From Ichthyobacteriaceae bacterium (GTDB lineage Bacteria > Bacteroidota > Bacteroidia > Flavobacteriales > JADGDT01): a stretch of DNA of 61,870 bases. Under the pieces are notes generated by a model. It saw only the letters and a program-made list of their open reading frames with translations, made no database searches and was not told the origin of the DNA. Below are positions 45,101 to 59,936 of the stretch, piece by piece (the first letter of the stretch is position 1; each line of letters starts with the position of its first letter). The stretch lies in assembly GCA_016744755.1 (NCBI GenBank), contig JADGDT010000003.1, positions 16,548 through 78,417 of the forward strand, in the 5' to 3' direction. A program made the position numbers and the translations under genes.

Positions 45101-45700
45101 GGATGTCAATGTTTGTGTTACAAAATATATTACAATAATTGCTAGTACTCCAATAAACGAAATACTAGTTTTCTTCCATTTCATAGCAAGTGCAAATATT
45201 ATACTTCCTACAATAAACATATTTGGCAACACAAATAATAAAAAACTATTAACGTAGGCCATAAAATGGAAATCTCCATATTGATCCTCAGAAGTCCATC
45301 CAAATAAAGGACCGTAGATAGACCCCAAAGAAATACCAATAAATACTCCTAAAAATGGGATTGAAGAAAGAATTAGTGCAGCAAAAAATCTACCAAAAAA
45401 GTAACCTCTTTTAGAAACTTGTGTACTGAAAATAATTTCGTTAAACATATTATCGTAGTCCTTTAAAGCTGCTTTGTTAAAAAAAGCAGTAGCTCCTAAA
45501 ATGCCAAAAAGCACCATGGCAAGCGTTAGACTAGTAATTGTATATGGAGAGTTTTTGTAAACGTTACCAACTCCACCTCCAATGGAAACATCGGTTGCAG
45601 TAATGCCAAAGATAATAGCAGTTAGAACAAACGTGAAAATATAAACCATCGGTCGCTTAAGCGATGATTTGAGTTCTGATATAAATAAAGTTTTAAACAT
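42128..45700 (-). CDS. ABC-2 permease / M1 aminopeptidase fusion
   Basis: Multi-TM N-terminal half; AQAFP, AHEMSHQWW, SESFAEYS, YKKG. Confidence 0.9.
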   Translation of the reverse strand: MFKTLFISELKSSLKRPMVYIFTFVLTAIIFGITATDVSIGGGVGNVYKNSPYTITSLTLAMVLFGILGATAFFNKAALKDYDNMFNEIIFSTQVSKRGYFFGRFFAALILSSIPFLGVFIGISLGSIYGPLFGWTSEDQYGDFHFMAYVNSFLLFVLPNMFIVGSIIFALAMKWKKTSISFIGVLAIIVIYFVTQTLTSDLDNETIAALLDTFGNKAYDNYTKYFTAVERNTINPSLVGIILYNRLIWVSVGIIILLSSYFSFSFKQVSKKTKSKKEELITNKEFLLPSVNSSFNFNGTFLQFKSFFKINFNNIFKSTTFRVLVVFSFVLLISTLVGGFEYYGLKSYPVTYKMMNAITGSVIIFIIIILVFYSGELVWRDRDNKINEVIDSTAHNSLISLLAKTISLIALASIVYIFATVIGIVYQLGFAYFRIELGVYLFNFMLDTLPRFIIMSSFMIFIQVISSNKYLGYFISIILIFGTNIIKAILHINTRMLSLGSIPSISYSDLNSFGPGVYGAVWFNIYWMLFALLTLILAGAMWNRGVATPLFAKIKNAWKSSTKQYKTVFYTVLVLWMITGSFVYYNTQVLNPYDNSDTVENGQVEYEQKYKKHEKAVLPKIIDIKYFIDIFPEERNVSVKAKLTLKNESNTKIDSLFFNTSDKWVAKFDIPDSKVVLDDEDLGFKIFKFNNALKPGDTLSIKLNTEYKTKGFPNGTGSTNVIKNGTFIRNSQILPSFGYNSSVELSDRHKRKEHGLPTKERMPKLDSTNTKALMANYLTNGVSDYINAETVISTSSDQIAIAPGSLIKQWKEGDRNYYKYKVDHKSQNFYSFISGRYEIATRKWNDVDIEVYYDKKHSANIEMMMDAVGRSLEYYTKNFGTYYHKQCRIIEFPKYSTFAQAFPGTMPYSESFGFIIDLEDEKENNIIDAVIAHEMSHQWWAHQVIGANMQGSTMMSESFAEYSSLMTLKSTTENPMKMREFLKYNHDQYLRGRGSETKKELPLYKVENQQYIHYKKGSVVLYALQDYIGEDKVNLAMKEFLDEYKYKLPPYPTSLDFLKHLEPKVPDSLKYLINDWFKEITLYDNRLVEAKYTKLENGKYKVTIDVESFKVKADSLGNQTDVATNDWIDIGAFADKDEDKLIYQKRVKIDKPKMTFSFDLDTIPAKVAIDPRHLLIDRVYKDNIKVVEEK

Positions 45701-45807
45701 TTTGAGTTATGTTATTTTTAGTGAAACAGTAATGCTGTGATCAGTAATGCAGTGAGGGAACTACTTTCAGCTTGAGCTTCGAGCATTCAGCTTCGAGCTT
45801 TTTCAAC

Positions 45808-46692
45808 CTACACTAGAGTGTTTTCTGTATTAATATTTGAGAAAAACACATCTTCGAGGTTTGGTTTTACTAATTCAAAATCACCACCTAAATCAGTTTC
45901 ACTTAAAACATGAATTAATGGTTGACCTCCTACCATTTTGTTTGAAATAATAGAGAAGCTATTTGCATATTCTTCTAACTCATCTCGTCTTACTAATTTC
46001 TGATAAACTTTACCATCTAGCGAATCTATTGCCTCTTGTGGTGCTCCGTGAAAAACAATTTTCCCTAAATCCATAATTGCCATTTTTGTACATAACTCGC
46101 GTACATCATCAACAATATGAGTAGATAAAACCACAATCACATCTTCACTAACATCAGCAAGTAAATTGTAAAAACGATTTCTTTCGCTAGGATCTAATCC
46201 TGCTGTAGGCTCATCAACAATAATTAAATTAGGATTACCAATAAGTGCTTGTGCAATTCCAATACGTTGCTTCATCCCTCCAGAAAACTCTTTTACACTT
46301 TTATTTCTTTTCTCGTAAAGATTAACCTTGTTAAGTAAATAACTTACCAATTCTTTTCTTTCTTTTGAATTTGAAATACCTTTAAGTATAGCCAAATGAT
46401 CTAATAATTCGTAAGCAGTTATTTGCGGATATACTCCAAACTCTTGAGGAAGATATCCGAGATTTTTTCTAAGTTCTGTAGGTTGTTCAAAAACATTAAT
46501 ATCGTTTAGCATTACAGTACCAGAATCTGCTTCTTGTAGAGTAGCAAGAGTTCGCATCAACGATGATTTTCCTGCTCCATTAGGACCGAGAAGTCCAAAC
46601 ATTCCATTTTCTATTTCTAAGCTTACATTATCTAAAGCTTTTACTCCGTTTGGGTAAGTTTTAGTAAGATTTTCAATTGTGAGTTTGTTCAT
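45808..46692 (-). CDS. ABC transporter ATP-binding protein
   Basis: GPNGAGKS, FSGGMKQR, IVDEPTAGLDP. Confidence 0.95.
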   Translation of the reverse strand: MNKLTIENLTKTYPNGVKALDNVSLEIENGMFGLLGPNGAGKSSLMRTLATLQEADSGTVMLNDINVFEQPTELRKNLGYLPQEFGVYPQITAYELLDHLAILKGISNSKERKELVSYLLNKVNLYEKRNKSVKEFSGGMKQRIGIAQALIGNPNLIIVDEPTAGLDPSERNRFYNLLADVSEDVIVVLSTHIVDDVRELCTKMAIMDLGKIVFHGAPQEAIDSLDGKVYQKLVRRDELEEYANSFSIISNKMVGGQPLIHVLSETDLGGDFELVKPNLEDVFFSNINTENTLV

Positions 46693-47643: not shown

Positions 47644-47731
47644 AACAATGTCGAAGGTGATTTTTTCCTTTTTGAAGTTTTCTGTTAGTATCATGTTTTA
47701 ATTGTAATATATAATATATTTGCTATTCATT

Positions 47732-47815
47732 AAGGCTTTTCGGATTCCACCTATTGTTGCAACAATATCTTTTAGTAATTAATTACTAAATTGGATTTTT
47801 GGAAAGCCTTTTTTT
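47732..47815 (-). repeat. Leader copy 4 (partial) / left direct repeat of about 84 bp
   Basis: Near-identical to 50036-50119; contains palindrome tattgttgcaacaata at 47752-47767. Confidence 0.85.
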
Positions 47816-47827
47816 ATTCTTAAACTT

Positions 47828-48445
47828 TTAGATTGAAATAGTCTTAGTAATTATATCCTCCAAATGATTTTGTTGATGAGATGCTATTAGTATAGTATGT
47901 CCTTTTCTTGATTTACTAATTATTATCTCTTTCAAATTAATAATAGACTCTACATCTAATCCTTCGAAAGGCTCATCAAGAAACCAATATTTTGGTTTAT
48001 GAAGTAATGTAGATATTATCTCTATTTTCTTCTGTGTTCCTTTCGAACATTTCTCTATATACTTATCTACTTCTTCCCTGATAAAAAATACATCTATTAA
48101 TTCTTGTACTAATATATCTGTTTCTTTATTTTTTACTTTTCGCAATGTGGCTGTAAAATCGAAAAACTCTAATGCTGTAAACTTTTCTATCAATAGTGAT
48201 TTATCAAATAACACTCCTAAATTATTTTTATAGCTATAGGATGATTCTTCTATAATATTATTACCTATTTCAATTAATCCAGAATCTAGCAAACAATTTC
48301 CGCTAAGTATTTTTATTAACGTAGATTTTCCTGCTCCATTTCTACCAGTAAGTCCGTAAATCTCACCTTCTTTTAATTTAAGATTAAAATCTTTGAAGAT
48401 TATATTTTTACCAAATTTTTTATTTATATTTTTTGCTTCTATCAT
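47828..48445 (-). CDS. ABC ATPase (candidate immunity transporter)
   Basis: GRNGAGKST, CSKGTQKK, FLDEPFEGLD, ASH. Confidence 0.9.
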   Translation of the reverse strand: MIEAKNINKKFGKNIIFKDFNLKLKEGEIYGLTGRNGAGKSTLIKILSGNCLLDSGLIEIGNNIIEESSYSYKNNLGVLFDKSLLIEKFTALEFFDFTATLRKVKNKETDILVQELIDVFFIREEVDKYIEKCSKGTQKKIEIISTLLHKPKYWFLDEPFEGLDVESIINLKEIIISKSRKGHTILIASHQQNHLEDIITKTISI

Positions 48446-49017
48446 GATTTTATATATTTAGGAAATGAATAAACAGAAAATACAACCAAAGAAAAAGATA
48501 TTATTATTCCAACATACTTTAAATCCATCAAACTATAAAACGTATCTAAAAAACTTATAGCTATAGAAAATATTATTAATGTAATTGCATTCTTATTCAA
48601 AAATGAATTACCCTTTTCAGTCTTTAATACACTGATAACATTTCCAAAGAATATTGCACTAAATAACGTTGTAATAAAATGAGTAATCATATTTGGAATT
48701 ATAATTTCTTCTAAAAACACTTTCTGTATAATTATAAATATCACCAAGAAAAACAATCCAACGAGAGTCTCTATTACATTTTGTGAAATTAATATTCGTT
48801 TATGTGAAACCCCATAAATACTGTTCGTCATTGCATCCCAATACACCCCATTCTGCAATACATTTACAAAATGTTTGTAAATAAATAACGGGTATAAATA
48901 TGGGAGACCTATTTGTAAATACTGAAATTTACTGATTACTATAAGTAATAGCGCAATAAGATAATATTCTCCTATCAAGTAGTATCTTAAAAAATATTTC
49001 AGGTAAAATTTTAGCAT
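48442..49017 (-). CDS. Hypothetical multi-TM protein (candidate ABC permease)
   Basis: Hydrophobic, overlaps both neighbours. Confidence 0.7.
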   Translation of the reverse strand: MLKFYLKYFLRYYLIGEYYLIALLLIVISKFQYLQIGLPYLYPLFIYKHFVNVLQNGVYWDAMTNSIYGVSHKRILISQNVIETLVGLFFLVIFIIIQKVFLEEIIIPNMITHFITTLFSAIFFGNVISVLKTEKGNSFLNKNAITLIIFSIAISFLDTFYSLMDLKYVGIIISFSLVVFSVYSFPKYIKS

Positions 49018-49754
49018 TGCTTTCTATTTCGATGTAAATAATATCCCGAAGAAAAAATTAATATCAAGACTAATGTTAAGGATATAATTATATCAATTAT
49101 AGAATTGATAATAGTAAAACTTATTTTTGGTATTCCATAATAATTAACAGCAACTATCAATAATAGGGAGATAAGTCTATAAATATTTTTAGAAATTTTA
49201 GGGATAACTACAATTCTAGAAATATTAAGTATCAATACAGATATGGTAGCTGCTATAAGGTAAGATATCGCTACTATTATTAATATTTCGGAATTAACAA
49301 ATATATCGATTGTTAGATTGTAAGATGATATAAAAAAAGGAAGTAATAGCAATATTGTAACTGGAATAATTAGAGTAATACTATATATTTCTACACCAAT
49401 TTGTACAATGTATTTTTTTATTCTTGAGATTGCTATCTGATCTAAAATTAAACTTGATTTTGTTTCTACATATATATTACTTAATATATTTGTAACAATA
49501 GTGAAGAATACAACAAGCCCAACAAGTCGCTCAATATTGAATGTTAGTTCTTTTCCATAATAAGTTGGCGCCTCAGCAGAGATACCAACGGTTATAAGCC
49601 CGAAGAAAATAATTATCAATGCCAAAGCACCCCAATCTGGAGGATATGGAATTCCGTATTTGGATAAGTAAATTTCTAAATATGTCACATTCTGCTTGTA
49701 CCTTCTAAAAGATATAATTCTAGCATGATTAATTAGTCTTATTACTTCTAACAT
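49011..49754 (-). CDS. Hypothetical multi-TM protein (candidate ABC permease)
   Basis: Start reassigned to MLEVIRL at 49754; the ORF-track extension is an off-frame reading of the peptide gene. Confidence 0.7.
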   Translation of the reverse strand: MLEVIRLINHARIISFRRYKQNVTYLEIYLSKYGIPYPPDWGALALIIIFFGLITVGISAEAPTYYGKELTFNIERLVGLVVFFTIVTNILSNIYVETKSSLILDQIAISRIKKYIVQIGVEIYSITLIIPVTILLLLPFFISSYNLTIDIFVNSEILIIVAISYLIAATISVLILNISRIVVIPKISKNIYRLISLLLIVAVNYYGIPKISFTIINSIIDIIISLTLVLILIFSSGYYLHRNRKQC

Positions 49755-49819: not shown

Positions 49820-49996
49820 TTAATCTATTCCTTGAAGAACACATCCTACACCTGCTAAAGCAGCATAACCCCAAGGCCCACCTACAACCCCTGCTAGACC
49901 AAGTGCCATAACTGTTGTTGCGGCACCAGTAGCACATCTTTCCCATGACCAACCACCACTAATGCTCTCAAGATTCTTAATTTCTAATCTTTCCAT
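49820..49996 (-). CDS. Double-glycine precursor peptide E (58 aa; not in ORF track)
   Basis: MERLEIKNLESISGG|WSWERCATGAATTVMALGLAGVVGGPWGYAALAGVGCVLQGID. Confidence 0.88.
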   Translation of the reverse strand: MERLEIKNLESISGGWSWERCATGAATTVMALGLAGVVGGPWGYAALAGVGCVLQGID

Positions 49997-50119
49997 AATA
50001 TTGTAAAAATTTAAATTTAGTTTCCTACTCTAATCAAGGCTTTTCAGATTCCGCCTATTGTTGCAACAATATATTTTAGTGATTTATTGCTAATTTGGAT
50101 TTTTGGAAAGCCTTTTTTT
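49997..50119 (-). repeat. Leader copy 3 plus right direct repeat (50036-50119)
   Basis: Minus strand tattgttgcaacaata-ggcggaatctgaaaagcc-ttgatta-gagtaggaaactaaattt...ATG. Confidence 0.85.
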
Positions 50120-52241
50120 GATGCTCATCATAAACATAATAATCTTCAAATTCAATTAGCTTCTTTTCTTCTAGCTTATAAATTTTATCGGCATATTTTT
50201 CGGGTAGATTACTTCTATGTGTAATGAATATTACTATTCCATTCTCTTTAAACTTTAATAGTTTTTGCAATACTACATGCTCTGTAAAATAATCCATTGC
50301 TGATGTTCCTTCATCTATTATTAATAAATCTGGCTTTTGGAATAATGCTCTTGCTAAAGCAATCATTTGTTTTTGTCCTCCTGAAAGATTTATTCCATTT
50401 TCGCCTATCAATGTCATGTAGCCCTGAGGTAAGGAATCTATAAAAGAAGCAAATCCGTTTTCATTTAAGAAAGTAAGTGCTTCTTTCAATGTTTCTTCAT
50501 TATTATCCATAGCTATATTGAATAATACTGAACCACTAAGGATAGGGATTTCTTGTGGTATTACTGCAAGTTTATTCCGCCAGTTATTTAGTTTAAGATC
50601 CTTTAATTCAATTTTATTATTGATAAGTACTTTTCCTGATTCTTGTAAATAATATCTTTGCATAATCTGAGCTAAAGTACTTTTACCACTACCACTTTCG
50701 CCCATAATAAATACCATTTTACCTAAACTAGCTTCCAAATTTACCTTATCTAGCAATAGCTTTTTGCCTGGAAACCTAAACGATAGATTATCTATTTTTA
50801 TTGATGATATTTTTTCTTCTATTTTTTGTCCATCTTCTTTTTCGGCATCTATATCTACAAACTCAAACATTCTATAGAAAGCTACTTTTGCTTCGTTTAC
50901 TACTATACTTACTAATGCTAGATTAGTAATTGATGGCAGCATAGATGATGCTATACCAATTATAGCCATCATTTCGCCAGTTTGTAGTCTATCGTTGAAA
51001 ACCTCGTAACTATTATATCCCAATATTATCATTAAAAATAATGCTGATAATACTCCTGAGTTTACAATTAATTTTACATTTATCTTACCAAGGTTGAATA
51101 CTGAATTTTGATATTGAGAATAAATTTTAGAATTAGTTTCTGAAAAAAGCTTTTGTTTATCTGAATTTTTAATCTCCGAAATGGCTTGTATATTATCTAT
51201 ATAATTACTCTCAGAGTGGGCATAGTTTGTCATTACTTCTTTTTGCCCCTCTATTACAGGTTTATTATATCTGTATAATACAATAAATACAAGTGGAATT
51301 ATAGCGGAAGTTATTAAGCCTGTTTCTACCGAATACGAGAATAATACTATTAAAGATATTATACTTATTAGAATATCAATTATCATATTTCCTGCCAATT
51401 GCGAAATTACACTCTGAATACGTGCAGTATCATTTAGCCTAGAAATTAATTCTCCTATTCTACGAGTATCAAAAAATACTTTTGGTAATGACAGTAATTT
51501 GCCATAGAATTTATTAATTATTCTGATATTGAAGTTTTTACTTTGCTCTATGAGTATTCGTTGGCGTAAACCTACAAATAATGCTCGTACAACAAGTAAA
51601 AAACCTACAAGTGAAGTACCTACTATAAAACGTGTAAATTCTTTTTGTGGCAAAATTTCATCTATTAATTTTTCGGAATACAAAGCCATTACCATATTAA
51701 GCCCAGCTAATATTACACCAAAAACCAAACTTATTGTTAGCAAGGGATAATCATCTTTTAATAAAGAGAGCAAATATTTTTTCTTTCTATTTTTTGCATT
51801 CTCTCTCTTTACAAAATCGTTATTTGGAGATAAAGTAAGTAAGCTTTTTGACTGCCATATTCCCTCTAACTCTTCCTCATTGTAATACACTATTCCCTTA
51901 GCAGGATTGCCAACAGTAAACCTGTTGTTTTCGTATTTGTAAACAACTAAGTAATGTTGCAGTCTGCCATCAATTAACACATGTATTATTACAGGCTCTT
52001 TTTGTTCTTTAAGATGTTTTATTTCTGCTTTAAAACCATCTATTTGCAACCCACATTTTACACCTGATTGTACTAAGCCAAGCATGGTAGTGCCTTCTTT
52101 AGTTGTACCACTTATATTACGTAATTGATCTAAAGAGTAATCACCCTCGTGGTATTTAATAATAGAAAGCAAGCACGCTACACCACAATCAGACTGGTCT
52201 TGTTGGAGAGTGAAGGTTGATTTTGGATTTTGTTTTTTCAT
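50076..52241 (-). CDS. Peptidase-containing ABC transporter (C39 PCAT)
   Basis: QQDQSDCGVACL (catalytic Cys), QHYLV, TM domain, GESGSGKST, LSGGQKQ, IIDEGTS. Confidence 0.96.
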   Translation of the reverse strand: MKKQNPKSTFTLQQDQSDCGVACLLSIIKYHEGDYSLDQLRNISGTTKEGTTMLGLVQSGVKCGLQIDGFKAEIKHLKEQKEPVIIHVLIDGRLQHYLVVYKYENNRFTVGNPAKGIVYYNEEELEGIWQSKSLLTLSPNNDFVKRENAKNRKKKYLLSLLKDDYPLLTISLVFGVILAGLNMVMALYSEKLIDEILPQKEFTRFIVGTSLVGFLLVVRALFVGLRQRILIEQSKNFNIRIINKFYGKLLSLPKVFFDTRRIGELISRLNDTARIQSVISQLAGNMIIDILISIISLIVLFSYSVETGLITSAIIPLVFIVLYRYNKPVIEGQKEVMTNYAHSESNYIDNIQAISEIKNSDKQKLFSETNSKIYSQYQNSVFNLGKINVKLIVNSGVLSALFLMIILGYNSYEVFNDRLQTGEMMAIIGIASSMLPSITNLALVSIVVNEAKVAFYRMFEFVDIDAEKEDGQKIEEKISSIKIDNLSFRFPGKKLLLDKVNLEASLGKMVFIMGESGSGKSTLAQIMQRYYLQESGKVLINNKIELKDLKLNNWRNKLAVIPQEIPILSGSVLFNIAMDNNEETLKEALTFLNENGFASFIDSLPQGYMTLIGENGINLSGGQKQMIALARALFQKPDLLIIDEGTSAMDYFTEHVVLQKLLKFKENGIVIFITHRSNLPEKYADKIYKLEEKKLIEFEDYYVYDEHQKKAFQKSKLAINH

Positions 52242-52277
52242 TTGAGATTAAAAAAAAGTATAATATTCTTTGATGAC

Positions 52278-53597
52278 TTAATTGAATAATTTTAGATACA
52301 TTCTTTCCTTTCGTATAGGACTTGGTCTATAATAAATAAATATACCAATGGAAATTATATACAACAAAATATATCCTAAATAATATATTTTTCCTAAAAT
52401 AGGAAGTGTTAATACCAAAGAGACTAATACAGTACTAAGTGATGATACAATTGATACATTATTTTTTATTCCAAATGGTCTATTTACATGTGATGGGAGT
52501 ACTAAAGACCATACAACACTTAAAGGTGTTAAGATAATAGTTGATGATATATATGATATTATTAAAAACCAAAAATTATTATCCAAATAGATTAAAAACA
52601 CTAATGATATTATAAAATCTAAAATTAAAGGGAAACCAACAAGTCTTAGGTGCGTATTTTTCAACTCCCTCATCTTATAATCCATAAATGAAATATTATA
52701 CCATACTTCTCGTAAATATCCCCATAAATTGTTAAAAACAGAATTATATAACATAACAGGTGTAGAAACTGCAACTATAATAAATAATGGAAAAAATGAA
52801 GTTTCAGTATCTAAACTTCTACTTTCTAAATTATAAAAATATACAAGAGCTATTGTTTTAAAAAGCAATGATGTGAATAGAGCAACATAAAGATTTCGTT
52901 TAGATAAAAGTAGTTTTAAGAATAAATATTTGTTGCTAATATAACTTATCGCATTTACACCAACTTTAAAACTAGATTTAGTAAATAAATAAAAAGAAAT
53001 TAGATAAAATATTATTGTGAAAGTAATTGAACTAAAAGTAGTGTTATTGTAATATATGGTAAGCAAATATATTGCAATTGAAATAATTAGCAATCCCATT
53101 TGAAATATATTTAATTTTTTTTTATACCATATAGAATACATAATTATTATAAAATTTGATGTAATAACATATGAAATAAACTTCAATGCATCAATTGCAG
53201 AGATACTCTCTGAAGTTGTAATCAGTATCATTATAAATATATAACTCGCTATTGTAAAATTATCCAAAAAATGAATAATAATAGTTATATTAAATTTTGA
53301 CAAATTAGATACAGGCAAAGAATTATTAAATATTCTTAATTCCGTTTTTTTATTAGTGATGAATGATTCAACAATAGTTAAACTAAATAAGCCTAAACCT
53401 ATCCAATTGATAAAATTAACCTGATCGTACCAATTGAATTTGGCTAAAGCCTCACTATCTATTATTCTGGATATTACAAAAGCGTAAACTGAAGCAGTAA
53501 GCGTATATAGAAAAAGACTAATAATATTAAATTTGCTGTTTGTAAAATTATATTTAGTTTTGAAATACATCTTTACAAGATATATACCTAACTCCAT
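52278..53597 (-). CDS. Hypothetical polytopic membrane protein (candidate immunity permease)
   Basis: About 12 hydrophobic segments, very AT-rich, overlaps the ABC ATPase gene. Confidence 0.75.
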   Translation of the reverse strand: MELGIYLVKMYFKTKYNFTNSKFNIISLFLYTLTASVYAFVISRIIDSEALAKFNWYDQVNFINWIGLGLFSLTIVESFITNKKTELRIFNNSLPVSNLSKFNITIIIHFLDNFTIASYIFIMILITTSESISAIDALKFISYVITSNFIIIMYSIWYKKKLNIFQMGLLIISIAIYLLTIYYNNTTFSSITFTIIFYLISFYLFTKSSFKVGVNAISYISNKYLFLKLLLSKRNLYVALFTSLLFKTIALVYFYNLESRSLDTETSFFPLFIIVAVSTPVMLYNSVFNNLWGYLREVWYNISFMDYKMRELKNTHLRLVGFPLILDFIISLVFLIYLDNNFWFLIISYISSTIILTPLSVVWSLVLPSHVNRPFGIKNNVSIVSSLSTVLVSLVLTLPILGKIYYLGYILLYIISIGIFIYYRPSPIRKERMYLKLFN

Positions 53598-54358
53598 ATC
53601 GAAGATTTTTCGTTTAATTCTAATTCTGTATTAGAAATCCCATTATCTACATGTGTACTTAATAACTCATCTAAATTATAATTAGATGATTCCTTAATAT
53701 CTATAATAGAACTATCCAATACAACTTTCCCATCGTCTAGTATTATTAAGTGATTAATTATTTTTTCGATGTGATTGAGATTATGTGATGATATTAATAT
53801 AGTGCGTTTTTTATTTTCGCCATATTTATTTATAAAACTTATTAGTTGCTTAGATGCTATTGGGTCTAAGCCAGAGAATGGTTCATCTAAAATTAGAAAA
53901 CTTGGCTTATGTATTATGCAAGAACACAATTCTAACTTCTTTCTATTTCCAGTAGATAAATCCTTTACTAAGGTATCTGTATTCTGCTCCTTGAAAAACA
54001 AATCTAATAATTCATTAATTCGTTGTCTCGCATCTTCCTTAGATACTTTAAAAAGCTTAGATGAATACTCTAGGTATTCTTTCACCGAAAACATTTCAAA
54101 AAGACTATTAACACTAGAAAGGTACCCCATTTCTAATTTTATACTTTGAGGTAAATCAATTATATATGTTTCACCGTTATAAAGGATTCCTCCTCTTGTA
54201 GGAGTTATATACTTGGTAATAGAATTAAAAAGTGTAGTTTTTCCTGCACCATTTTTTCCGATAACTCCGTATGTTCCTGAATCAAATATTAAGTTCACAT
54301 TCTTTAGAACCGAGTTCCCTGAGTATATTTTTGTAATATTATCTAGTATTATTCTCAT
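53588..54358 (-). CDS. ABC ATPase (candidate immunity transporter)
   Basis: GKNGAGKTT, LSTGNRKK, ILDEPFSGLDP, SSH. Confidence 0.92.
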   Translation of the reverse strand: MRIILDNITKIYSGNSVLKNVNLIFDSGTYGVIGKNGAGKTTLFNSITKYITPTRGGILYNGETYIIDLPQSIKLEMGYLSSVNSLFEMFSVKEYLEYSSKLFKVSKEDARQRINELLDLFFKEQNTDTLVKDLSTGNRKKLELCSCIIHKPSFLILDEPFSGLDPIASKQLISFINKYGENKKRTILISSHNLNHIEKIINHLIILDDGKVVLDSSIIDIKESSNYNLDELLSTHVDNGISNTELELNEKSSIWS

Positions 54359-54405
54359 GTTTTTTTATTAAGAGAGGAGTACTACTCCCCTCATGAGTAG
54401 TGATT

Positions 54406-54576
54406 TTATAAATTATAAATAGTATAAGCCACACATCCAACTGCCGCTACATTAGCAACAACATTAGCTCCACCTCCCATTAATGCGAATAAACCTGCTC
54501 CTGCACAAAATCCATCCCAAAAGGCTTTCGTTCCACCTTCTATAGACTCTAACTGAATATTATTTAATTTTTCCAT
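54406..54576 (-). CDS. Double-glycine precursor peptide A (56 aa; not in ORF track)
   Basis: MEKLNNIQLESIEGG|TKAFWDGFCAGAGLFALMGGGANVVANVAAVGCVAYTIYNL. Confidence 0.88.
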   Translation of the reverse strand: MEKLNNIQLESIEGGTKAFWDGFCAGAGLFALMGGGANVVANVAAVGCVAYTIYNL

Positions 54577-54583
54577 AACTATA

Positions 54584-54739
54584 TTATCTTGTATCTCCTG
54601 TTAAACATAATACCGCTGCTGCACCAAAAGACCATGGTCCAGGAAAAAAAACGGCTGCTGCAATACCTAGTCCACATGCAGTCTCTTGGTTAATACCTCC
54701 CTGAACAAGCTCCATCTGTTCAATAGTTAATTTTTCCAT
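54584..54739 (-). CDS. Double-glycine precursor peptide B (51 aa; not in ORF track)
   Basis: MEKLTIEQMELVQGG|INQETACGLGIAAAVFFPGPWSFGAAAVLCLTGDTR. Confidence 0.88.
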   Translation of the reverse strand: MEKLTIEQMELVQGGINQETACGLGIAAAVFFPGPWSFGAAAVLCLTGDTR

Positions 54740-54853
54740 AATATTTAAAAATTAAAATTTAGTTTCCTACTCTGTTTAAGGTTTCAAGTTAAATCTTGAT
54801 TTCACCAGGCTTTTTTTTTGATTATGCCTATTATTACAACAATATCTTTATCT
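54740..54853 (-). repeat. Leader copy 2
   Basis: Near-identical to 55524-55635 except for a decayed palindrome/hairpin part. Confidence 0.85.
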
Positions 54854-54932
54854 GCTTATTTACCAATAACGAAACAAGTGATATTTATAATTCGAGATAT
54901 AAATAAATAGCATATTTTTTTTTATTAGAATA

Positions 54933-55097
54933 TTACCTCGTGATTTTTCTTCTTTCTAAATAAAACTTAAACAAGATATTAATGATTAATAATAAATAAT
55001 TAGCCTTTATTAAATATTTAGGCATCTCAATATCAAAAAAGATTAATAAAAATATTACTAAGTTTAATAGAACAGATATTTTCCAGATTGTCCTCAT
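54933..55097 (-). CDS. 54-aa two-TM protein, candidate immunity protein (not in ORF track)
   Basis: MRTIWKISVLLNLVIFLLIFFDIEMPKYLIKANYLLLIINILFKFYLERRKITR. Confidence 0.6.
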   Translation of the reverse strand: MRTIWKISVLLNLVIFLLIFFDIEMPKYLIKANYLLLIINILFKFYLERRKITR

Positions 55098-55138
55098 AAT
55101 TAAGATAATAATTAAAATTTGTAAATGTATTTAAAAAC

Positions 55139-55166
55139 TGCCCACCTACTATCAGTTGGTGGGGCA
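55139..55166 (-). terminator. Hairpin after peptide C
   Basis: tgcccacctact...agttggtggggca. Confidence 0.55.
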
Positions 55167-55178
55167 ATAATATAAGAT

Positions 55179-55346
55179 TTAAGCAAGGAAGCATGCTCCT
55201 GCAACCCCTAAACCAACCCATCCTCCAGGATTCCAACTATTTGCAAGACTTAATACTGCTAATCCAACACCGAATCCAGCACAAAAATCACCAAAATCAC
55301 TTCCTCCTTCTAAATTTTCTAATTCGTCAAAATTTAACTCTTTCAT
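55179..55346 (-). CDS. Double-glycine precursor peptide C (55 aa; not in ORF track)
   Basis: MKELNFDELENLEGG|SDFGDFCAGFGVGLAVLSLANSWNPGGWVGLGVAGACFLA. Confidence 0.88.
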   Translation of the reverse strand: MKELNFDELENLEGGSDFGDFCAGFGVGLAVLSLANSWNPGGWVGLGVAGACFLA

Positions 55347-55364
55347 TTTTTTTATTTAAAATTA

Positions 55365-55523
55365 TTAACAAGCAAAATAACCATATAATGCTCCTCCTAT
55401 TATAAGCGCTGCACCAGCAGGGGTAAATGCCATAATCATTCCTGCTGTCATTAGACCAGCAGCCTTATGTACACAAGCTCCACCATCAATACCTTCCATC
55501 TGTTCAATAGTTAATTTTTCCAT
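55365..55523 (-). CDS. Double-glycine precursor peptide D (52 aa; not in ORF track)
   Basis: MEKLTIEQMEGIDGG|ACVHKAAGLMTAGMIMAFTPAGAALIIGGALYGYFAC. Confidence 0.88.
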   Translation of the reverse strand: MEKLTIEQMEGIDGGACVHKAAGLMTAGMIMAFTPAGAALIIGGALYGYFAC

Positions 55524-55635
55524 AATATTTAAAAATTAAAATTTAGTTTCCTACTCTGTTTAAGGTTTCAAGTTAAATCTTGATTTCACCAAGGCTTTTC
55601 GGATTCTGCCTATTGTTGCAACAATATCTTTATCT
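55524..55635 (-). repeat. Leader copy 1
   Basis: Palindrome at 55611-55626, ggcagaatccgaaaagcc hairpin, inserted ggtgaaatcaag...cttgaaacc stem, gagtaggaaact. Confidence 0.85.
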
Positions 55636-55642
55636 ACTTTTG

Positions 55643-56155
55643 TTAATCAACCAAAGCAGTTATCTTTTCTATTTTACTTAATCCTTTCAGTACTTTTAAC
55701 AACTCTCCTTTTTTGTTATACACAAATAAAGTAGGCACATGTTTTACTTTAAAAGTATTGTCTATTTCGTAATTTTTATCTAGTAATACTTTGTAAGCAG
55801 GATAATTCTCAATTTTATATTCATCGAAGTGTTTTTTTACTTTTTCCTGTTTTTCGGCGCTTACAAAATATACGTTGAACTTTTCTGATACTTTTTTGTA
55901 ATGTTTCTTAAACAAACCAAGTTCTGCATTACAAAACATACAATCAGTATTTACAAACGAAATAATTAAGCTTTTGTCTTTTGGCATTTGCAACTCTAAA
56001 GAATCACCATTTAATGTTTCGAAACTTAATTTTGGTAAAATCTGAATTTCAGCATGTTCATTATTCTTATTATTTAACATGTAAGCGGAAGCTACTATAA
56101 GCCCACCAAGTATTATTAAAACAACAGCTAATAATATTTTCTTACTCTTTTTCAT
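55643..56155 (-). CDS. TlpA-like thioredoxin-fold protein
   Basis: N-terminal TM; NTDCMFC (CxxC); cis-Pro loop VPTLFVY. Confidence 0.88.
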   Translation of the reverse strand: MKKSKKILLAVVLIILGGLIVASAYMLNNKNNEHAEIQILPKLSFETLNGDSLELQMPKDKSLIISFVNTDCMFCNAELGLFKKHYKKVSEKFNVYFVSAEKQEKVKKHFDEYKIENYPAYKVLLDKNYEIDNTFKVKHVPTLFVYNKKGELLKVLKGLSKIEKITALVD

Positions 56156-56181
56156 TACTAATTAATAATTTCAAATTGAAC

Positions 56182-56235
56182 ATTGCTAATTGATAATTGC
56201 TAATTGACAATTGACAATTGACAATTGACAATTGA
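56182..56235. repeat. Heptamer tandem repeat (ATTGCTA/ATTGATA/ATTGACA) x about 8
   Basis: Read directly; same family as 39830-39892 in the opposite orientation. Confidence 0.85.
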
Positions 56236-56237
56236 GT

Positions 56238-56901
56238 TTAACTGTACATTATTGATATAAACGTAACAAACACCACCCAAATAATAAATGCGGGCAAGTA
56301 AGATAGCATCACGTTATTGAATGATTTATCAAAATCTATATCTGCAACTTTTGATATTATCCAAGCTAATACAAACCAATATACAAGCTCAAATAGATTG
56401 GAACTTTGCAAAAGGTAGTAGAGATAACTGTTTACCTCATCGGCTTCGAACAACTGTGTAAGCGATAGTGGGAAGAAATAATTAATATCTTGTAAACTAT
56501 ACGAACTCTGAAAATAGAAGTATGCCATTTTTGAGGCATTTGCTATCCAAAATACTATATCGGCAAATATTACTGATTTTATAATATTTGAAAAAGAAAA
56601 TTCTCTCTCATCGAACACTAAATAAATACCACCATAAAGAATACTTCCTATAGTAATGTATTTTAGTATTAAAATGATAGGTGTAATTGCATAACCTATC
56701 CAGCTCCACTCTTTATTAAAATCAATCATTTTTTCTATTTGCGAAAACGATAAACCTTCGTAGGCATCGTAAAGCAAATTATCGTTAATGATAACATTGC
56801 TAGAAAAAAAGATTAATAACAGAGTTAGACCAGTAATTAGTAGATAGGCTTCCCATAATTTGAATGTATTTTATCCAATGGGTGGGAGTTGTAGTATTCA
56901 T
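56238..56901 (-). CDS. Yip1-like membrane protein, apparent +1 frameshift near 56870
   Basis: ORF track starts at TTG 56777; the frame extends upstream through a TM helix (LWEAYLLITGLTLLLIFF) to a stop, and ATG 56901 is one base out of frame; motifs FPLSL, NLFELVYW. Confidence 0.65.
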
Positions 56902-57076: not shown

Positions 57077-57745
57077 TTACAGAAAGCCTCTTTTTTTTGC
57101 TTCTTCAATTAAACCTATATCTGATTTTTGTTCTACGCCAAAGAGTATTTTAATTTTTCGTTTGCGTTTTTCTATTGCTCTTTGTGTTAGTCCAATATCT
57201 TCATTAAAATATAAGTTTTTGGTAAGGTCTCCTTTGTTTAAACGATCTAATATAAGTGTATCGGTCTTGTCTAATAAGATATTCGAATTTATTTTAGACC
57301 TAATTTTTTCTTTAATAGATGGGCTAAAACAAGGTGGATTATTTATTATTTCTGATATTGACTCTTTTAATACTTTAGGACTTATTTCACTTTTTATAAG
57401 TATCCCATCGGGATTTATATCTTTTATAATTGACTCCATTAGTAGCTGATCTTTTATCATTGTTAAAAAAGCTAGCTTAGGGTGTTTTGTAGCTTGCTTA
57501 ACTCTACTGGCTAAATCAACTCCATTAATCAATCCGTGCTTTTCAGAATCATCCATATTTATATCAAAAAATATAATATCAAATTTATCTAAATCGTTTT
57601 CGTTTACTATGTAGTCGTAAGCATCATCTAGAGTAGTTTTGGAATGTACGTTTACTTTGTAATTTTCGCAATTTTGTAGCGTCAACGTATATCCTTCCAG
57701 TATCATTGGATGGTCGTCTATAAACAATATTTCAAGTGTTTGCAT
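57077..57745 (-). CDS. NarL/LuxR-type response regulator
   Basis: IDDHPMILEG, FFDINM, GILIK; C-terminal HTH (RAIEKRKRKIK..F, AKKRGFL). Confidence 0.9.
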   Translation of the reverse strand: MQTLEILFIDDHPMILEGYTLTLQNCENYKVNVHSKTTLDDAYDYIVNENDLDKFDIIFFDINMDDSEKHGLINGVDLASRVKQATKHPKLAFLTMIKDQLLMESIIKDINPDGILIKSEISPKVLKESISEIINNPPCFSPSIKEKIRSKINSNILLDKTDTLILDRLNKGDLTKNLYFNEDIGLTQRAIEKRKRKIKILFGVEQKSDIGLIEEAKKRGFL

Positions 57746-59714
57746 TTATGGGTGTTTTTATAGTGAGTTTAATTCCTTTATTATTTTCCGAAAATATATC
57801 TAATATACCATCTATTTCTTTTACTCTATCTTTTATATTGCTAATACCTATTCCTTTTTTATTAGGTCCATTGCTAAAACCAACTCCATCATCTTCAATT
57901 TCTAATATAAAATCATTATCCACCTCATTAAAACTTATAGTAACACTATTTGCTCTTGAGTGTTTTGCAATATTAGTTATTGCTTCCTGAATAATACGAT
58001 ATAAGTTTATTTTAACATCTTCTGATATTAAATTCCATTTATCGAAATTATTTAGTAATTGATAATTTATATTTGAAGATAAAAATGACTTTTTTAGTAA
58101 CTTATCTACTGTCTTGGAAAGATTAGAGTCCGATTTGCTTTTAAGCTCGTGAGAAATATCTCTAATTTCATTTTCAATTTCTTTTAGAGTTTCAATAAAT
58201 ATATTATTATCTGCATTCTCTCTTACCTCCAGGTTATATCTAACTCCAAATAATTTTGAAAGAATATTGTCGTGCAGTTCTTTAGATAAATTAGAGTTAA
58301 CTGTTTTTTTAGCTTTTTGTATATTTACTTTCTCATTTTCAAGAATACCTCTAACTTCATCCCTAAATTCTTGTTCTTTTTCTAAATTATTTAGTTTAAA
58401 ATGCTGTTTCAAATAAAAATAAATGGTTAGAATAAGTAGTAATAAAGTAATAATAGTAATTATTAGCATATAATTTTTTTCTTCCAAAACTTCTGCTTTA
58501 CTCATATACTCGTCTGTTTCCATTCTTATACGAGCAAGTTTATTTTTCACCTTTCTATCTCTTAAATCTATCGAATCTTTAAGAGCAATGTAATTACGGC
58601 TGTATTTGTTGTTATTACTATCTACATCCATCAACATTAAATAACTCTTTAACCTTAATGTATTGTTTCCTGATAGGTTTGATAAACTTAAAGCAGTGCT
58701 TGCAGTTTCTATTGCTTTATCTTTTCTTTTCTGATGCTTGTATAACTCAGTAATAAGAAGCCTATTAGCTATTATACCCGCAGTATCTTTTATTGATTGT
58801 TTGAAATAATAGTTGTCTATAAATTCTTTCTCTACACCCTCTGTTAATAAGTCATTTTTAAATTTGGCATGAGTAAGGTTATCTTTTGCTCTTCCGTATA
58901 ATTGAGGGTCATCAACTATTAAACCTTTTACTTTTATTACTTTTTCTAAATAAAGTGTTGCTTTATAATAATTCTTTATCTTTAAAAATTCATGTCCAAT
59001 ATTATTATCACTTGTAGCAAGTGATAGAATATCATCACTAGCAATTAAACTTTTTGATTTTAGGAAAAACTTCATTGCATTCTCACTTTCTGTTTTTTCA
59101 GAATACAAATTAGCTAAATCATTATAGCAAGATTCTAACCAATCATCCATGTTGTTATCAGAAAAGATTTTGATTGCTTCAAACATATCATTCTCTGCAC
59201 CGTTATACTGATGCAAATCTTTTTGCACGCAAGATAAAAAGGCTAGATTTTTGGCATAACTAATTGTATCTTTTATAGCCAACAATAATTTATTTGAAGT
59301 ATTAAAGCTACTATATGCTTTTATACCTACACCTTTATTTAAAAAATAATAGCCTTTGTATTTATATGCTTTTGCCAAAACCAACGTATCGTTAATTAGT
59401 TTTGAATGGTCTATAATTTCGTTAGTTATTTTATTAAAAAGTGGGAAATCATTAAGTTTATAAGCAGAATATGAGAATTTAATTTTAAATGAATTAGATA
59501 TGGAATCATTAAACCTATAATTCTCTAATTTTTCTATTCCATCAACAATATATATTGTTCTGTCTTCTATGCTAATAGTATCGTTTCTAGATTGCGTAAT
59601 ATAATAATTAATACTATCTATTTCTGAAATTTGTGGTGCATCTTTACTCTTGTAATTATTATTGCAAGAGATGAATAAAATGAAGATTAAAAAAAATGAA
59701 ATAGGTAGTTTCAA
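57732..59714 (-). CDS. TPR-containing sensor histidine kinase (HisKA_3 type)
   Basis: Lipobox-like FISC, TPR-like helices, one TM, KELHD, RDISHEL, YRIIQEAITN..KH, EDDGVGF, GIGISN. Confidence 0.92.
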   Translation of the reverse strand: MKLPISFFLIFILFISCNNNYKSKDAPQISEIDSINYYITQSRNDTISIEDRTIYIVDGIEKLENYRFNDSISNSFKIKFSYSAYKLNDFPLFNKITNEIIDHSKLINDTLVLAKAYKYKGYYFLNKGVGIKAYSSFNTSNKLLLAIKDTISYAKNLAFLSCVQKDLHQYNGAENDMFEAIKIFSDNNMDDWLESCYNDLANLYSEKTESENAMKFFLKSKSLIASDDILSLATSDNNIGHEFLKIKNYYKATLYLEKVIKVKGLIVDDPQLYGRAKDNLTHAKFKNDLLTEGVEKEFIDNYYFKQSIKDTAGIIANRLLITELYKHQKRKDKAIETASTALSLSNLSGNNTLRLKSYLMLMDVDSNNNKYSRNYIALKDSIDLRDRKVKNKLARIRMETDEYMSKAEVLEEKNYMLIITIITLLLLILTIYFYLKQHFKLNNLEKEQEFRDEVRGILENEKVNIQKAKKTVNSNLSKELHDNILSKLFGVRYNLEVRENADNNIFIETLKEIENEIRDISHELKSKSDSNLSKTVDKLLKKSFLSSNINYQLLNNFDKWNLISEDVKINLYRIIQEAITNIAKHSRANSVTISFNEVDNDFILEIEDDGVGFSNGPNKKGIGISNIKDRVKEIDGILDIFSENNKGIKLTIKTPINANT

Positions 59715-59765
59715 GTAAAACGATTTTAGGGGGCTAATATAAAATTTTAGAACCCTAAAATCTAA

Positions 59766-59936
59766 CTATTCTTCTTCTTTCTTAACCGTTTTATCTTGTT
59801 CTCCTCCCTCATCTGATACAAATCTTTCAGAAATAAATTTTTCTTCTTTTGACAACTCATTTATAGTATCTTTTGTACAAGAGGATAATACTATTGAAAA
59901 TAGAACTAAGGCAATAATAATTTTGTAAGTTTTCAT
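59766..59936 (-). CDS. 56-aa acidic lipopeptide upstream of the kinase (not in ORF track)
   Basis: MKTYKIIIALVLFSIVLSS-CTKDTINELSKEEKFISERFVSDEGGEQDKTVKKEEE. Confidence 0.7.
   Translation of the reverse strand: MKTYKIIIALVLFSIVLSSCTKDTINELSKEEKFISERFVSDEGGEQDKTVKKEEE

What the first reader, a model, noticed from the sequence alone, without database searches (positions are those of the whole stretch)
49820..55523. Five unannotated double-glycine precursors forming a family of two-Cys hydrophobic peptides
Seen: all five have 15-aa leaders ending in GG and 36-43-aa Gly/Ala-rich cores with exactly two Cys near the two ends, mostly with GxxxG-like motifs. They are arranged as pairs D+C and B+A plus single E. 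First members share MEKLTIEQME (identical DNA over 29 nt), second members share F..(G)FCAG.G, and B and E share GPW. Known: C39 PCATs cleave after GG, and class IIb bacteriocins act as GxxxG-containing pairs. No RiPP-modifying enzyme is present, only a CxxC oxidoreductase. Inference: disulfide-looped, membrane-active two-peptide bacteriocins whose cores look unlike the bacteroidetocins as I recall them.
Basis: partly seen in the sequence, partly recalled or inferred. Interest (0 to 1): 0.85.

Follow-up and report, generated by a model that had tools for sequence, protein, structure and literature searches.

The report
Paired disulfide-hairpin bacteriocins of Bacteroidota
This marine Bacteroidota genome carries five real small peptide genes beside their cutting-and-export pump; they likely make membrane-damaging antibacterial peptides, at least two of them probably working as a pair, of a kind proven in streptococci but untested here, and similar gene sets recur across the phylum.

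Summary
The five precursors are real: 15-aa GG leaders, 36-43-aa hydrophobic cores, two Cys each. The GxxxG argument fails: absent in B, at chance level elsewhere.

TM protein + redoxin + C39 exporter is the gene set of bacteroidetocin regions, and it is widespread. 59 of 81 related loci hold such precursors; 95 of 106 have exactly two Cys; 17 tight pairs occur. D+C recurs in order in another Bacteroidia genome (20/37 and 19/40 identity). Small two-TM ORFs follow 36 of 85 module-final precursors versus 14 of 543 control genes.

The cores do not resemble the four-Cys cationic bacteroidetocin type. They fit the gallocin A/thermophilin 13 subgroup of class IIb (disulfide helical hairpins, thioredoxin, small immunity protein). 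Verdict: a likely Gram-negative gallocin-like bacteriocin array on a bacteroidetocin-type export cassette; a new variant of a known kind. Activity, synergy and expression are untested, and this strain's copy may be impaired.

The parts
55365..55523 (-). Precursor D (52 aa; 37-aa core, Cys 2/37); first member of the D+C pair
   Evidence: orthologue first in a pair in L077 (20/37 identity, z 12.7-14.3)
55179..55346 (-). Precursor C (55 aa; 40-aa core, Cys 7/37, N.WNP.GW turn); second member
   Evidence: 3 of 3 relatives at z>=5 are second members (L077, L104, L078); low-confidence helix-turn-helix model
55137..55168 (-). Terminator-like hairpin with short U tail, between C and the candidate immunity gene
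   Evidence: fold -15.1 kcal/mol for 55120-55178; not listed by the terminator scan
54933..55097 (-).
   Evidence: class enriched after precursors (36/85 vs 14/543); no tblastn homologue, so gene status is inferred
54584..54739 (-). Precursor B (51 aa; 36-aa core, Cys 7/30); first member of B+A
   Evidence: relatives at z>=5 are first members in L133 and L126 and a second member in L232
54406..54576 (-). Precursor A (56 aa; 41-aa core, Cys 9/33); second member of B+A
   Evidence: only relative reaching z 5.0 is a solo gene
49820..49996 (-). Precursor E (58 aa; 43-aa core, Cys 6/37); solo
   Evidence: relatives P0008/P0009 at 88/86% identity; PF10439 21.8 bits, below the 27.1 cut-off
56238..56901 (-). 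Multi-TM (about 5 helices) accessory gene of the cassette; one extra base near 56869 (about codon 11) breaks the frame in this assembly
   Evidence: the frame is intact in 94%-identical P0002 and in contigs of runs X2 and X3; Yip1-like lead (PF04893 on 15% of members of the second Atlas cluster)
55643..56155 (-). Membrane-anchored CxxC thioredoxin-fold oxidoreductase (ResA/TlpA-like)
   Evidence: Pfam AhpC-TSA 7e-13, NCBIfam ResA 2e-16 below cut-off
50076..52241 (-). C39 peptidase-containing ABC exporter (PCAT); catalytic Cys19 and His96 present, Asn at 112 where homologues mostly have Asp
52278..54358 (-). ABC ATPase (53588-54358) plus 11-TM membrane protein (52278-53597) directly after B+A; candidate ABC-type self-protection
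   Evidence: role inferred from position only
47828..49754 (-). Two membrane proteins (49011-49754, 48442-49017) plus ABC ATPase (47828-48445) directly after E; candidate ABC-type self-protection
   Evidence: role inferred from position only
55524..55626 (-). Repeat R1 before D: 16-bp palindrome (55611-55626) then DUF805b leader RNA with an inserted hairpin
   Evidence: (26.9 bits, below GA 35.6)
54740..54844 (-). Repeat R2 before B: degenerate palindrome (2 mismatches) and degenerate DUF805b copy that has lost the pseudoknot loop bases
   Evidence: (17.4 bits)
49997..50119 (-). Repeat R3 before E (overlaps the PCAT 3' end): palindrome 50056-50071 and DUF805b 50022-50057
   Evidence: 44.1 bits, above GA 35.6
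47729..47815 (-). Repeat R4: 87-nt, 91%-identical copy of R3 downstream of the E module, with no precursor behind it
57077..59714 (-). Adjacent TPR sensor kinase and response regulator; link to the peptides unproven
   Evidence: regulator homologues in only 4 distinct fetched loci and a paralogous pair elsewhere in the genome

Best explanation
The locus holds five double-glycine precursor genes with two-cysteine hydrophobic cores beside a C39 exporter, a membrane-anchored thioredoxin and a multi-TM accessory gene, and it likely makes disulfide-closed helical-hairpin bacteriocins that permeabilise membranes of related bacteria, with D+C probably acting as a two-peptide unit.

Shown: the genes, their order, their conservation and the pair conservation. 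Inferred steps: (1) each module is expressed from its own leader, which carries a DUF805b RNA 21-30 nt before the ATG; (2) the PCAT cuts after GG and exports 36-43-aa cores to the periplasm; (3) the redoxin forms or corrects one disulfide joining the two helices; (4) cores leave the cell by an unknown route that needs the TM protein, since no membrane-fusion gene is linked; (5) D+C, and less surely B+A, insert together in the target membrane, while E acts alone; (6) the 54-aa two-TM protein protects against D+C and the two ABC modules against B+A and E; (7) modules are gained and reshuffled by recombination at the shared upstream repeat. In this strain output may be reduced, because the TM gene is frameshifted.
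For: The only C39 domain and all five peptide-like GG precursors of the genome lie in one locus. TM+PCAT occur together in 62 of 74 related loci, with the redoxin too in 45 of 74. 59 of 81 loci carry precursors; 95 of 106 have exactly two Cys and 73 of those 95 have GRAVY above 0.5. D+C is kept in order in L077 (20/37, 19/40 identity) and more weakly in L104. Relatives at z>=5 sit in tight pairs for D (1/1), C (3/3) and B (2/2), against a base rate of 34 of 106; shuffled cores reached at most z 4.6. Small two-TM basic-tail ORFs follow 36 of 85 module-final precursors versus 14 of 543 large control genes, and 3 of the 6 most similar to the window's ORF follow C-type peptides. The AF2 model of C is helix 18-35, turn, helix 40-54 with one Cys per helix (pLDDT 65). 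Nearest named Atlas clusters are Blp/BlpM class II bacteriocins (0.92), and two family members pass the PF10439 cut-off. Gallocin A precedent: two 2-Cys low-charge peptides, disulfides and a thioredoxin required, small hairpin immunity protein (PMC10100652). Bacteroidetocin precedent for the export genes (PMC6671954). A related strain has the E module directly behind the redoxin gene (joint 50064-55656 in run X3).
Against: No activity, processing or expression data. Linked genes are co-inherited anyway, so pair conservation does not prove synergy, and related genomes are not independent. Pairing is loose: a C-like peptide follows a non-D partner in L078, a B-like peptide is second in L232, an A-like one is first in L075, and A's only z 5.0 relative is solo. 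72 of 106 family precursors are solo. None of the five reaches the PF10439 cut-off. The candidate immunity ORF has no tblastn homologue, very low GC, and a terminator-like hairpin before it. The TM gene is frameshifted in the likely source run, and the PCAT has Asn112 where 48 of 50 and 112 of 119 homologues have Asp. ResA/TlpA-type proteins usually reduce rather than oxidise (recalled).
Confidence: 0.6

Rival explanations
1. The five are independent single-peptide bacteriocins (class IId or class II microcin-like); tandem genes only reflect array growth.
For: 72 of 106 family precursors are solo; partners and order vary (L075, L078, L232); A has no paired relative at z>=5; bacteroidetocins A, C and D act as single synthetic peptides (PMC6671954).
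Against: D+C is conserved in order at about 50% identity, with one small two-TM ORF after the pair rather than one per gene; all z>=5 relatives of D, C and B are paired.
Confidence: 0.2
2. They are divergent bacteroidetocins that kill by binding BamA at the outer surface rather than by forming pores.
For: Same accessory gene set and 15-aa leader; Coyne's extended list accepts peptides with 'at least two cysteines' from Flavobacteriia, with locus tags in the order peptide-x-TM-redoxin-ABC; the TM profile also finds a locus with a K-starting four-Cys cationic core (L228/L230).
Against: Bd-A/B are four-Cys, basic (+6, +2) and lack immunity genes; sensitivity depends on a BamA aspartate (PMC8546649). 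These cores are neutral to acidic, very hydrophobic, score z below 1 against the L230 core, and are followed by immunity-like genes.
Confidence: 0.08
3. They are secreted signal peptides read by the adjacent TPR kinase and response regulator, not toxins.
For: The two-component pair lies directly upstream; GG-leader pheromones share the exporter in the gallocin system.
Against: Regulator homologues occur in only 4 distinct fetched loci and the kinase in none; cores are long and very hydrophobic; immunity-like membrane genes follow the peptides.
Confidence: 0.07
4. Whatever the family does, this strain's copy is decaying and makes little or no active peptide (compatible with the best explanation for the family).
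For: TM gene frameshift present in the likely source run at depth about 40 and absent in runs X2 and X3; deleting the TM gene attenuates bacteroidetocin activity; PCAT Asn112; degenerate leader before B and an empty repeat R4.
Against: All five precursors, the redoxin CxxC, PCAT Cys19/His96 and ATPase motifs are intact; 5 of 119 PCAT homologues also carry Asn; the third triad residue is reported dispensable in CvaB (recalled); the X2 contig is at depth 2.7 only.
Confidence: 0.35

Closest known systems
[quoted passage not shown]
   Same: Tandem GG-leader peptides, two Cys near the termini of each, few charges, predicted helical hairpin, linked thioredoxin-fold protein, PCAT, small hairpin-like immunity gene third in the operon, PF10439-like.
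   Different: Gram-negative host; 15-aa rather than 23-aa leaders; shorter cores (36-43 vs 42 and 60 aa); an extra multi-TM accessory gene; several modules per locus.
Bacteroidetocins, 'class IIf' (PMC6671954, sections 7, 8, 14, 15 and supplement 4 read; PMC8546649 passages)
   Same: Bacteroidota; 15-aa GG leader; 36-48-aa cores; TM protein, thiol oxidoreductase and PCAT; no linked membrane-fusion gene; the extended list includes Flavobacteriia regions with similar gene order.
   Different: Tested Bd-A/B have four Cys, are basic, act singly, target BamA and have no immunity gene. These have two Cys, are neutral and hydrophobic, come in pairs and have immunity-like genes. The Fig. 8 sequences could not be seen, so overlap with the 14 untested peptides is open.
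CdzC/CdzD/CdzI of Caulobacter crescentus (PMC5380434, passages)
   Same: Gram-negative two-protein, Gly-rich bacteriocin with a small inner-membrane immunity protein; aquatic host.
   Different: 84-86-aa precursors with glycine zippers, a canonical type I secretion pair and surface aggregates; no disulfide machinery described in the passages read.
Class II microcins (PMC12219008, abstract, section 10, supplement passages)
   Same: Gram-negative, GG leader, PCAT, small size; the authors suggest bacteroidetocins may qualify.
   Different: Their pipeline missed Bacteroidota-type leaders; ColV-type export uses a membrane-fusion protein, which is not linked here (0 of 47 PCATs followed by an ORF of that size).
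Rfam DUF805b RNA (RF02914)
   Same: The leader before E passes the gathering score; pseudoknot covariation is confirmed.
   Different: Nothing essential: a known, functionally unexplained general Bacteroidota leader, not specific to this locus. The D and B copies carry a hairpin insert.

Membership tests
Bacteroidetocin-type region (class IIf, broad sense) | 15-16-aa GG leader, small core, at least two Cys | tested here: met
   definition
Bacteroidetocin-type region (class IIf, broad sense) | Linked PCAT and thiol oxidoreductase | tested here: met
Bacteroidetocin-type region (class IIf, broad sense) | TM protein orthologous to the bacteroidetocin TM protein | tested here: inconclusive
   No Bd-A/B TM sequence could be obtained. 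Indirect support: same gene order as Coyne's Flavobacteriia locus tags, and the profile hits (E 7e-13) a TM gene directly before a K-starting four-Cys core. The gene is frameshifted here.
Bacteroidetocins A-D (strict sense) | Four-Cys, basic core | tested here: not met
   two Cys, charge +1 to -2 versus four Cys, +6/+2; z below 1 to the Bd-like core of L230. Bd-C has an odd Cys number.
Bacteroidetocins A-D (strict sense) | No immunity gene; producer is sensitive | tested here: inconclusive
   candidate immunity ORF and two ABC modules are present but untested
Bacteroidetocins A-D (strict sense) | BamA is the target | not testable with these tools
   needs resistant mutants (PMC8546649)
Class IIb, gallocin A-like subgroup | Two adjacent GG-leader genes followed by an immunity gene | tested here: met
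   D+C then 54933-55097; same layout in L077, L104, L078. Immunity function is inferred. B+A is followed by an ABC module instead.
Class IIb, gallocin A-like subgroup | Two Cys near the termini of each low-charge peptide; linked thioredoxin-fold protein | tested here: met
Class IIb, gallocin A-like subgroup | Disulfide-closed helical hairpin | tested here: inconclusive
   C models as two helices with one Cys each, pLDDT 65, pTM 0.37; the Cys-Cys distance is not reported; only C was folded
Class IIb, gallocin A-like subgroup | Both peptides needed for killing; membrane permeabilisation | not testable with these tools
   bench assay needed
Classical class IIb (lactococcin G, plantaricin type) | GxxxG motifs beyond chance, Cys-free single helices | tested here: not met
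   GxxxG at shuffle level and absent in B; all cores have two Cys
Pfam PF10439 Bacteriocin_IIc | Score at or above 27.1 bits | tested here: not met
   14.6-21.8 bits for four of five, no hit for B; 2 of 17 foreign precursors scanned pass (L087, L098)
Rfam RF02914 DUF805b | Score at or above 35.6 bits | tested here: met
   44.1 bits for the copy before E; the other three copies score 26.9, 21.9, 17.4

The most novel reading that the evidence does not exclude
Bacteroidota have a phylum-wide, undescribed arsenal of disulfide-hairpin bacteriocins, many of them true two-peptide toxins with cognate two-TM immunity proteins. They are exported without a membrane-fusion protein by a Yip1-like TM protein, redoxin and PCAT, kept on the cell surface or in vesicles for short-range killing in seawater, and swapped as modules at a shared leader repeat. 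The bacteroidetocins would then be one specialised BamA-targeting offshoot of this larger platform.
Probability: 0.3. Interest if true: 0.75.

Novelty: new variant of a known kind. Interest (0 to 1): 0.52.

Why it matters
If true, it extends the gallocin-type disulfide-hairpin two-peptide bacteriocins from Gram-positive bacteria to a Gram-negative phylum. It also shows that the bacteroidetocin export cassette mostly carries a different, hydrophobic cargo with immunity genes. The survey yields about 100 unmodified, synthesisable 30-70-aa candidate antibacterials with predicted cognate partners and immunity proteins, from Flavobacterium, Chryseobacterium, Aquimarina and relatives. It also gives a tractable system for an open question: how a PCAT with no linked membrane-fusion protein delivers peptides across two membranes, and what the required TM protein does.

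Tried and rejected
GxxxG as evidence: rejected, at shuffle level.
A sixth precursor behind repeat R4: none in three frames, and none elsewhere in the genome.
DUF805b as a cassette-specific or recombination site: rejected; it matches 81 of 151 order genomes and precedes many unrelated genes. It was not found at gathering score in 15 of the 16 flanking loci that were scanned (L035 not scanned).
Sigma-70 promoter scan: 61 sites versus 73.8 expected, uninformative.
TM protein fold: AF2 model good (pLDDT 87), but no Foldseek match at E<=0.001 and best VIA Z 7.0, within noise.
PDB sequence search with E: no match.
Getting real bacteroidetocin sequences: plasmids gave only Flammeovirga loci; viral contigs gave none; 7 of 253 genomes of one Bacteroidales family had TM matches, and none of the 7 loci inspected showed the TM-peptide-redoxin order; Fig. 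8 of PMC6671954 is not held, and supplements of PMC11195462 and PMC5737381 were unreadable. The cluster-member look-up could not be made.
D+C complex prediction: never ran, the queue was full; no verdict.
Expression: no RNA holder listed.
The first single-protein genome scan found nothing.
The regex census of ABC modules (2 of 106) undercounts: one search shows stand-alone ABC ATPases next to the cassette in about 9 of 74 loci by my reading.
Literature searches for a Bacteroidota two-peptide or immunity-bearing class II bacteriocin found no such paper; most subscription journals are not covered.
Earlier findings by place and by long word sets gave nothing.

Full report
OBSERVATION. All five ORFs are present on the minus strand at the stated span. 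Each has a 15-aa leader ending GG and a 36-43-aa core with two Cys, 33-43% Gly+Ala, GRAVY 0.76-1.31 and net charge +1 to -2. A genome-wide regex for such leaders gave 12 rows; the five peptide-like ones are these, and the only C39 domain in the 3.6-Mb, 97%-complete genome is the exporter at 50076-52241. E has relatives at 88% and 86% identity with both Cys kept. GxxxG is absent in B and at shuffle level in the rest. The five cores are not detectably related to each other (all pairwise z below 3). Pfam gives only sub-threshold PF10439 scores for four of five; NCBIfam gives nothing at cut-off.

HOST. The best-matching runs are marine metagenomes (one may be the source). Genomes classed 'same order' carry the loci that names as Flavobacterium and Chryseobacterium, so I infer Flavobacteriales. 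None of four same-genus genomes (68-99% complete) had the TM gene, and the locus is 25-30% GC against 32% for the genome: it looks like accessory DNA.

(a) A multi-TM gene at 56238-56901, directly before the redoxin. Its 94%-identical homologue P0002 is 220 aa; here one extra base near codon 11 breaks the frame. The likely source run carries the extra base; contigs of runs X2 (depth 2.7) and X3 lack it. (b) A 54-aa two-TM ORF with a basic tail at 54933-55097, after D+C. (c) ABC ATPase plus membrane-protein modules after B+A and after E. (d) A repeat before D, B and E, with a fourth, empty copy after the E module. It holds a 16-bp palindrome (4 copies within 2 mismatches in the window, 0.12 expected; all 3 exact copies in the genome are here) followed by the Rfam DUF805b RNA. 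The E module is flanked by 87-nt, 91%-identical direct repeats, and in run X3 a contig joins that module straight to the redoxin gene (50064 to 55656). This suggests modules move by recombination at the repeat (inference from one contig).

THE FAMILY. A 20-sequence TM alignment matches 1380 clusters at 50% identity, 34 of 401 phylum genomes (12 of these belong to one family, and the inspected ones among them are apparently housekeeping copies without peptides) and 70 named loci. In 74 loci, TM+PCAT co-occur in 62 and all three genes in 45. A leader-only profile scan of 81 loci found 106 precursors in 59 loci; 95 have exactly two Cys and 34 lie in 17 tight pairs. The leader profile was trained on this set, and related genomes are not independent. 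Of the 95, 73 have GRAVY above 0.5. No PCAT (0 of 47) is directly followed by an ORF of membrane-fusion-protein size.

PAIRING. In L077 (a Bacteroidia MAG) a D orthologue (20/37 identical, z 12.7-14.3) precedes a C orthologue (19/40, z 10.5-11.3); L104 (Flavobacterium) shows the same more weakly (z 4.5 and 6.3). With a threshold of z 5 (20 shuffled cores reached at most 4.6), relatives of D (1), C (3) and B (2) are all in tight pairs in the same position. A's single relative (z 5.0) is solo, and E has none at that level; its two best (4.6-4.9) are solo. Against strict pairing: L078 pairs a C-like peptide with a non-D partner, L232 has a B-like peptide second, and L075 has an A-like peptide first. 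Co-inheritance of neighbours cannot prove synergy.

IMMUNITY. A 45-90-aa ORF with at least two TM segments and a basic tail follows 36 of 85 module-final precursors but only 14 of 543 large control genes. Among those 36, the ORFs behind C-type peptides rank 3rd, 4th and 6th in similarity to the window's ORF (z 2.6-3.2, weak). The window's ORF has no tblastn homologue and lies behind a terminator-like hairpin, so it remains a candidate.

MECHANISM (about 0.6). Shown: genes, order, conservation. Inferred: leader cleavage and export by the PCAT; one disulfide per core formed or corrected by the anchored redoxin; a helical hairpin (C models as helices 18-35 and 40-54 with one Cys each, low confidence); release by an unknown TM-protein-dependent route; membrane insertion, D+C together; protection by the two-TM protein or the ABC modules. 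My odds: antibacterial 0.75-0.8; D+C synergistic about 0.6; B+A about 0.45. The TM protein may be Yip1-like (Atlas lead at 15% of one cluster; Yip1-type ABC accessory proteins such as YknW are recalled, not checked); no fold match was found. This strain's copy may be impaired (about 0.35): TM frameshift, and Asn112 where 48 of 50 and 112 of 119 PCAT homologues have Asp, although Cys19 and His96 are intact.

COMPARISON. Bacteroidetocin regions consist of a five-TM protein, the peptide, a thiol oxidoreductase and a PCAT; all are needed and there is no immunity gene (PMC6671954 section 7). Bd-A/B cores are 42 aa, four-Cys and basic (section 8) and depend on a BamA aspartate (PMC8546649 passages). 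The extended list of 19 accepts 'at least two cysteines' (sections 14, 15), and its Chryseobacterium and Elizabethkingia locus tags run peptide-x-TM-redoxin-ABC (supplement 4 rows), the order seen in my loci. I could not see those sequences (figure not held), so some may already be of this type; a peer-review passage of PMC12219008 describes them as having 2 cysteines each. My TM profile also hits a gene directly before a K-starting, four-Cys, +3 core (L230), to which the five cores score z below 1. So the export platform is very likely shared, and the cargo differs from Bd-A/B. [quoted passage not shown] The Atlas places C near Blp/BlpM clusters (recognition score low). CdzCDI of Caulobacter is a Gram-negative two-protein precedent that stays on the cell surface (PMC5380434 passages). 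IIBacFinder already predicts 4,494 class II precursors in Bacteroidota in bulk (bioRxiv 2024.07.15.603639 passages), so such sequences are probably in databases, uncharacterised. Passages of PMC10352776 and PMC11195462 added nothing on this type. Searches found no paper on two-peptide or immunity-bearing class II bacteriocins of Bacteroidota.

THE RNA LEADER. DUF805b matches 81 of 151 order genomes and sits mostly 21-30 nt before the ATG of many unrelated genes; its GAGTAG half precedes 15 of 106 foreign precursors, one probably by chance. In 92 regex-picked instances (about a dozen spurious, none dropped), the loop pairs with the 3' tail: the third position pairs in 80 of 92 with all four Watson-Crick types, against a shuffle mean of 37, which indicates a pseudoknot. 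Earlier scan notes report the same. It is a known element of unknown function, not part of the novelty. The main text of PMC5737381 does not name it and its supplement was unreadable.

VERDICT. New variant of a known kind; interest 0.52.

Noticed in passing
window 50022-50057, 55548-55612; 92 instances in L043-L200: DUF805b forms a pseudoknot (loop with 3' tail, four-way covariation) around a GAA/AGUA motif and tolerates an inserted hairpin (window D and B, L109). It precedes many small secreted proteins and an ATP synthase c-like gene (L056, named by eye). Known RNA, function unknown.
   Followed up: yes
window 47752-47767, 50056-50071, 54829-54844, 55611-55626: A 16-bp palindrome directly 5' of each DUF805b copy; all 3 exact genome copies are here. 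It resembles a Bacteroidota -7 promoter element (recalled consensus) or a regulator site. Shorter palindromes sit at the same place in L087 and L145.
   Followed up: partly
window 57077-59936; G000 C95 about 65362-68241: A small lipoprotein-like ORF (59766-59936), TPR kinase and response regulator form a trio with a full paralogous trio on another contig (46-56% identity); possibly a peptide-sensing module of its own.
   Followed up: partly
L075, L082, L085 (Aquimarina): Arrays of up to ten GG precursors mix the hydrophobic two-Cys type with a second class having 23-aa leaders and 3-5 Cys, beside the same TM-redoxin-PCAT cassette.
   Followed up: no
L139, L136, L145, L210: A distinct polar, Tyr/Trp-rich two-Cys cargo on the same cassette; L139 repeats peptide-large protein-TM-redoxin three times, and L145 (Flammeovirga plasmid) adds LanC-like and glycosyltransferase genes.
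   Followed up: no
L230:4135-7499 and L116:6192-6380: K-starting beta-type cores resembling the described bacteroidetocin features, in Flavobacteriales genomes; L230 has TM-peptide order and a response regulator homologous to the window's.
   Followed up: partly
L213-L218, L220, L221, L223, L224: TM-family homologues in one family (12 of 12 genomes matched) lie in conserved housekeeping-looking context without peptides or PCAT, hinting at an older cellular role for this membrane protein.
   Followed up: no
(L074, L075, L089, L096, L110, L113, L124, L130, L033): Many family leaders end in GE, GN, GD, GS, GK, GH or AG rather than GG, so GG-only scans miss about a fifth of the family.
   Followed up: partly
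window 56170-56240: Short tandem repeats of a 7-nt unit between the TM and redoxin genes; 21 nt are absent in run X3 and many unrelated contigs match here, so it looks like a dispersed small repeat.
   Followed up: no
window 42128-46692: ABC ATPase followed by a 1190-aa permease fused to an M1-type aminopeptidase domain (HExxH-like motif seen by eye; not scanned).
   Followed up: no
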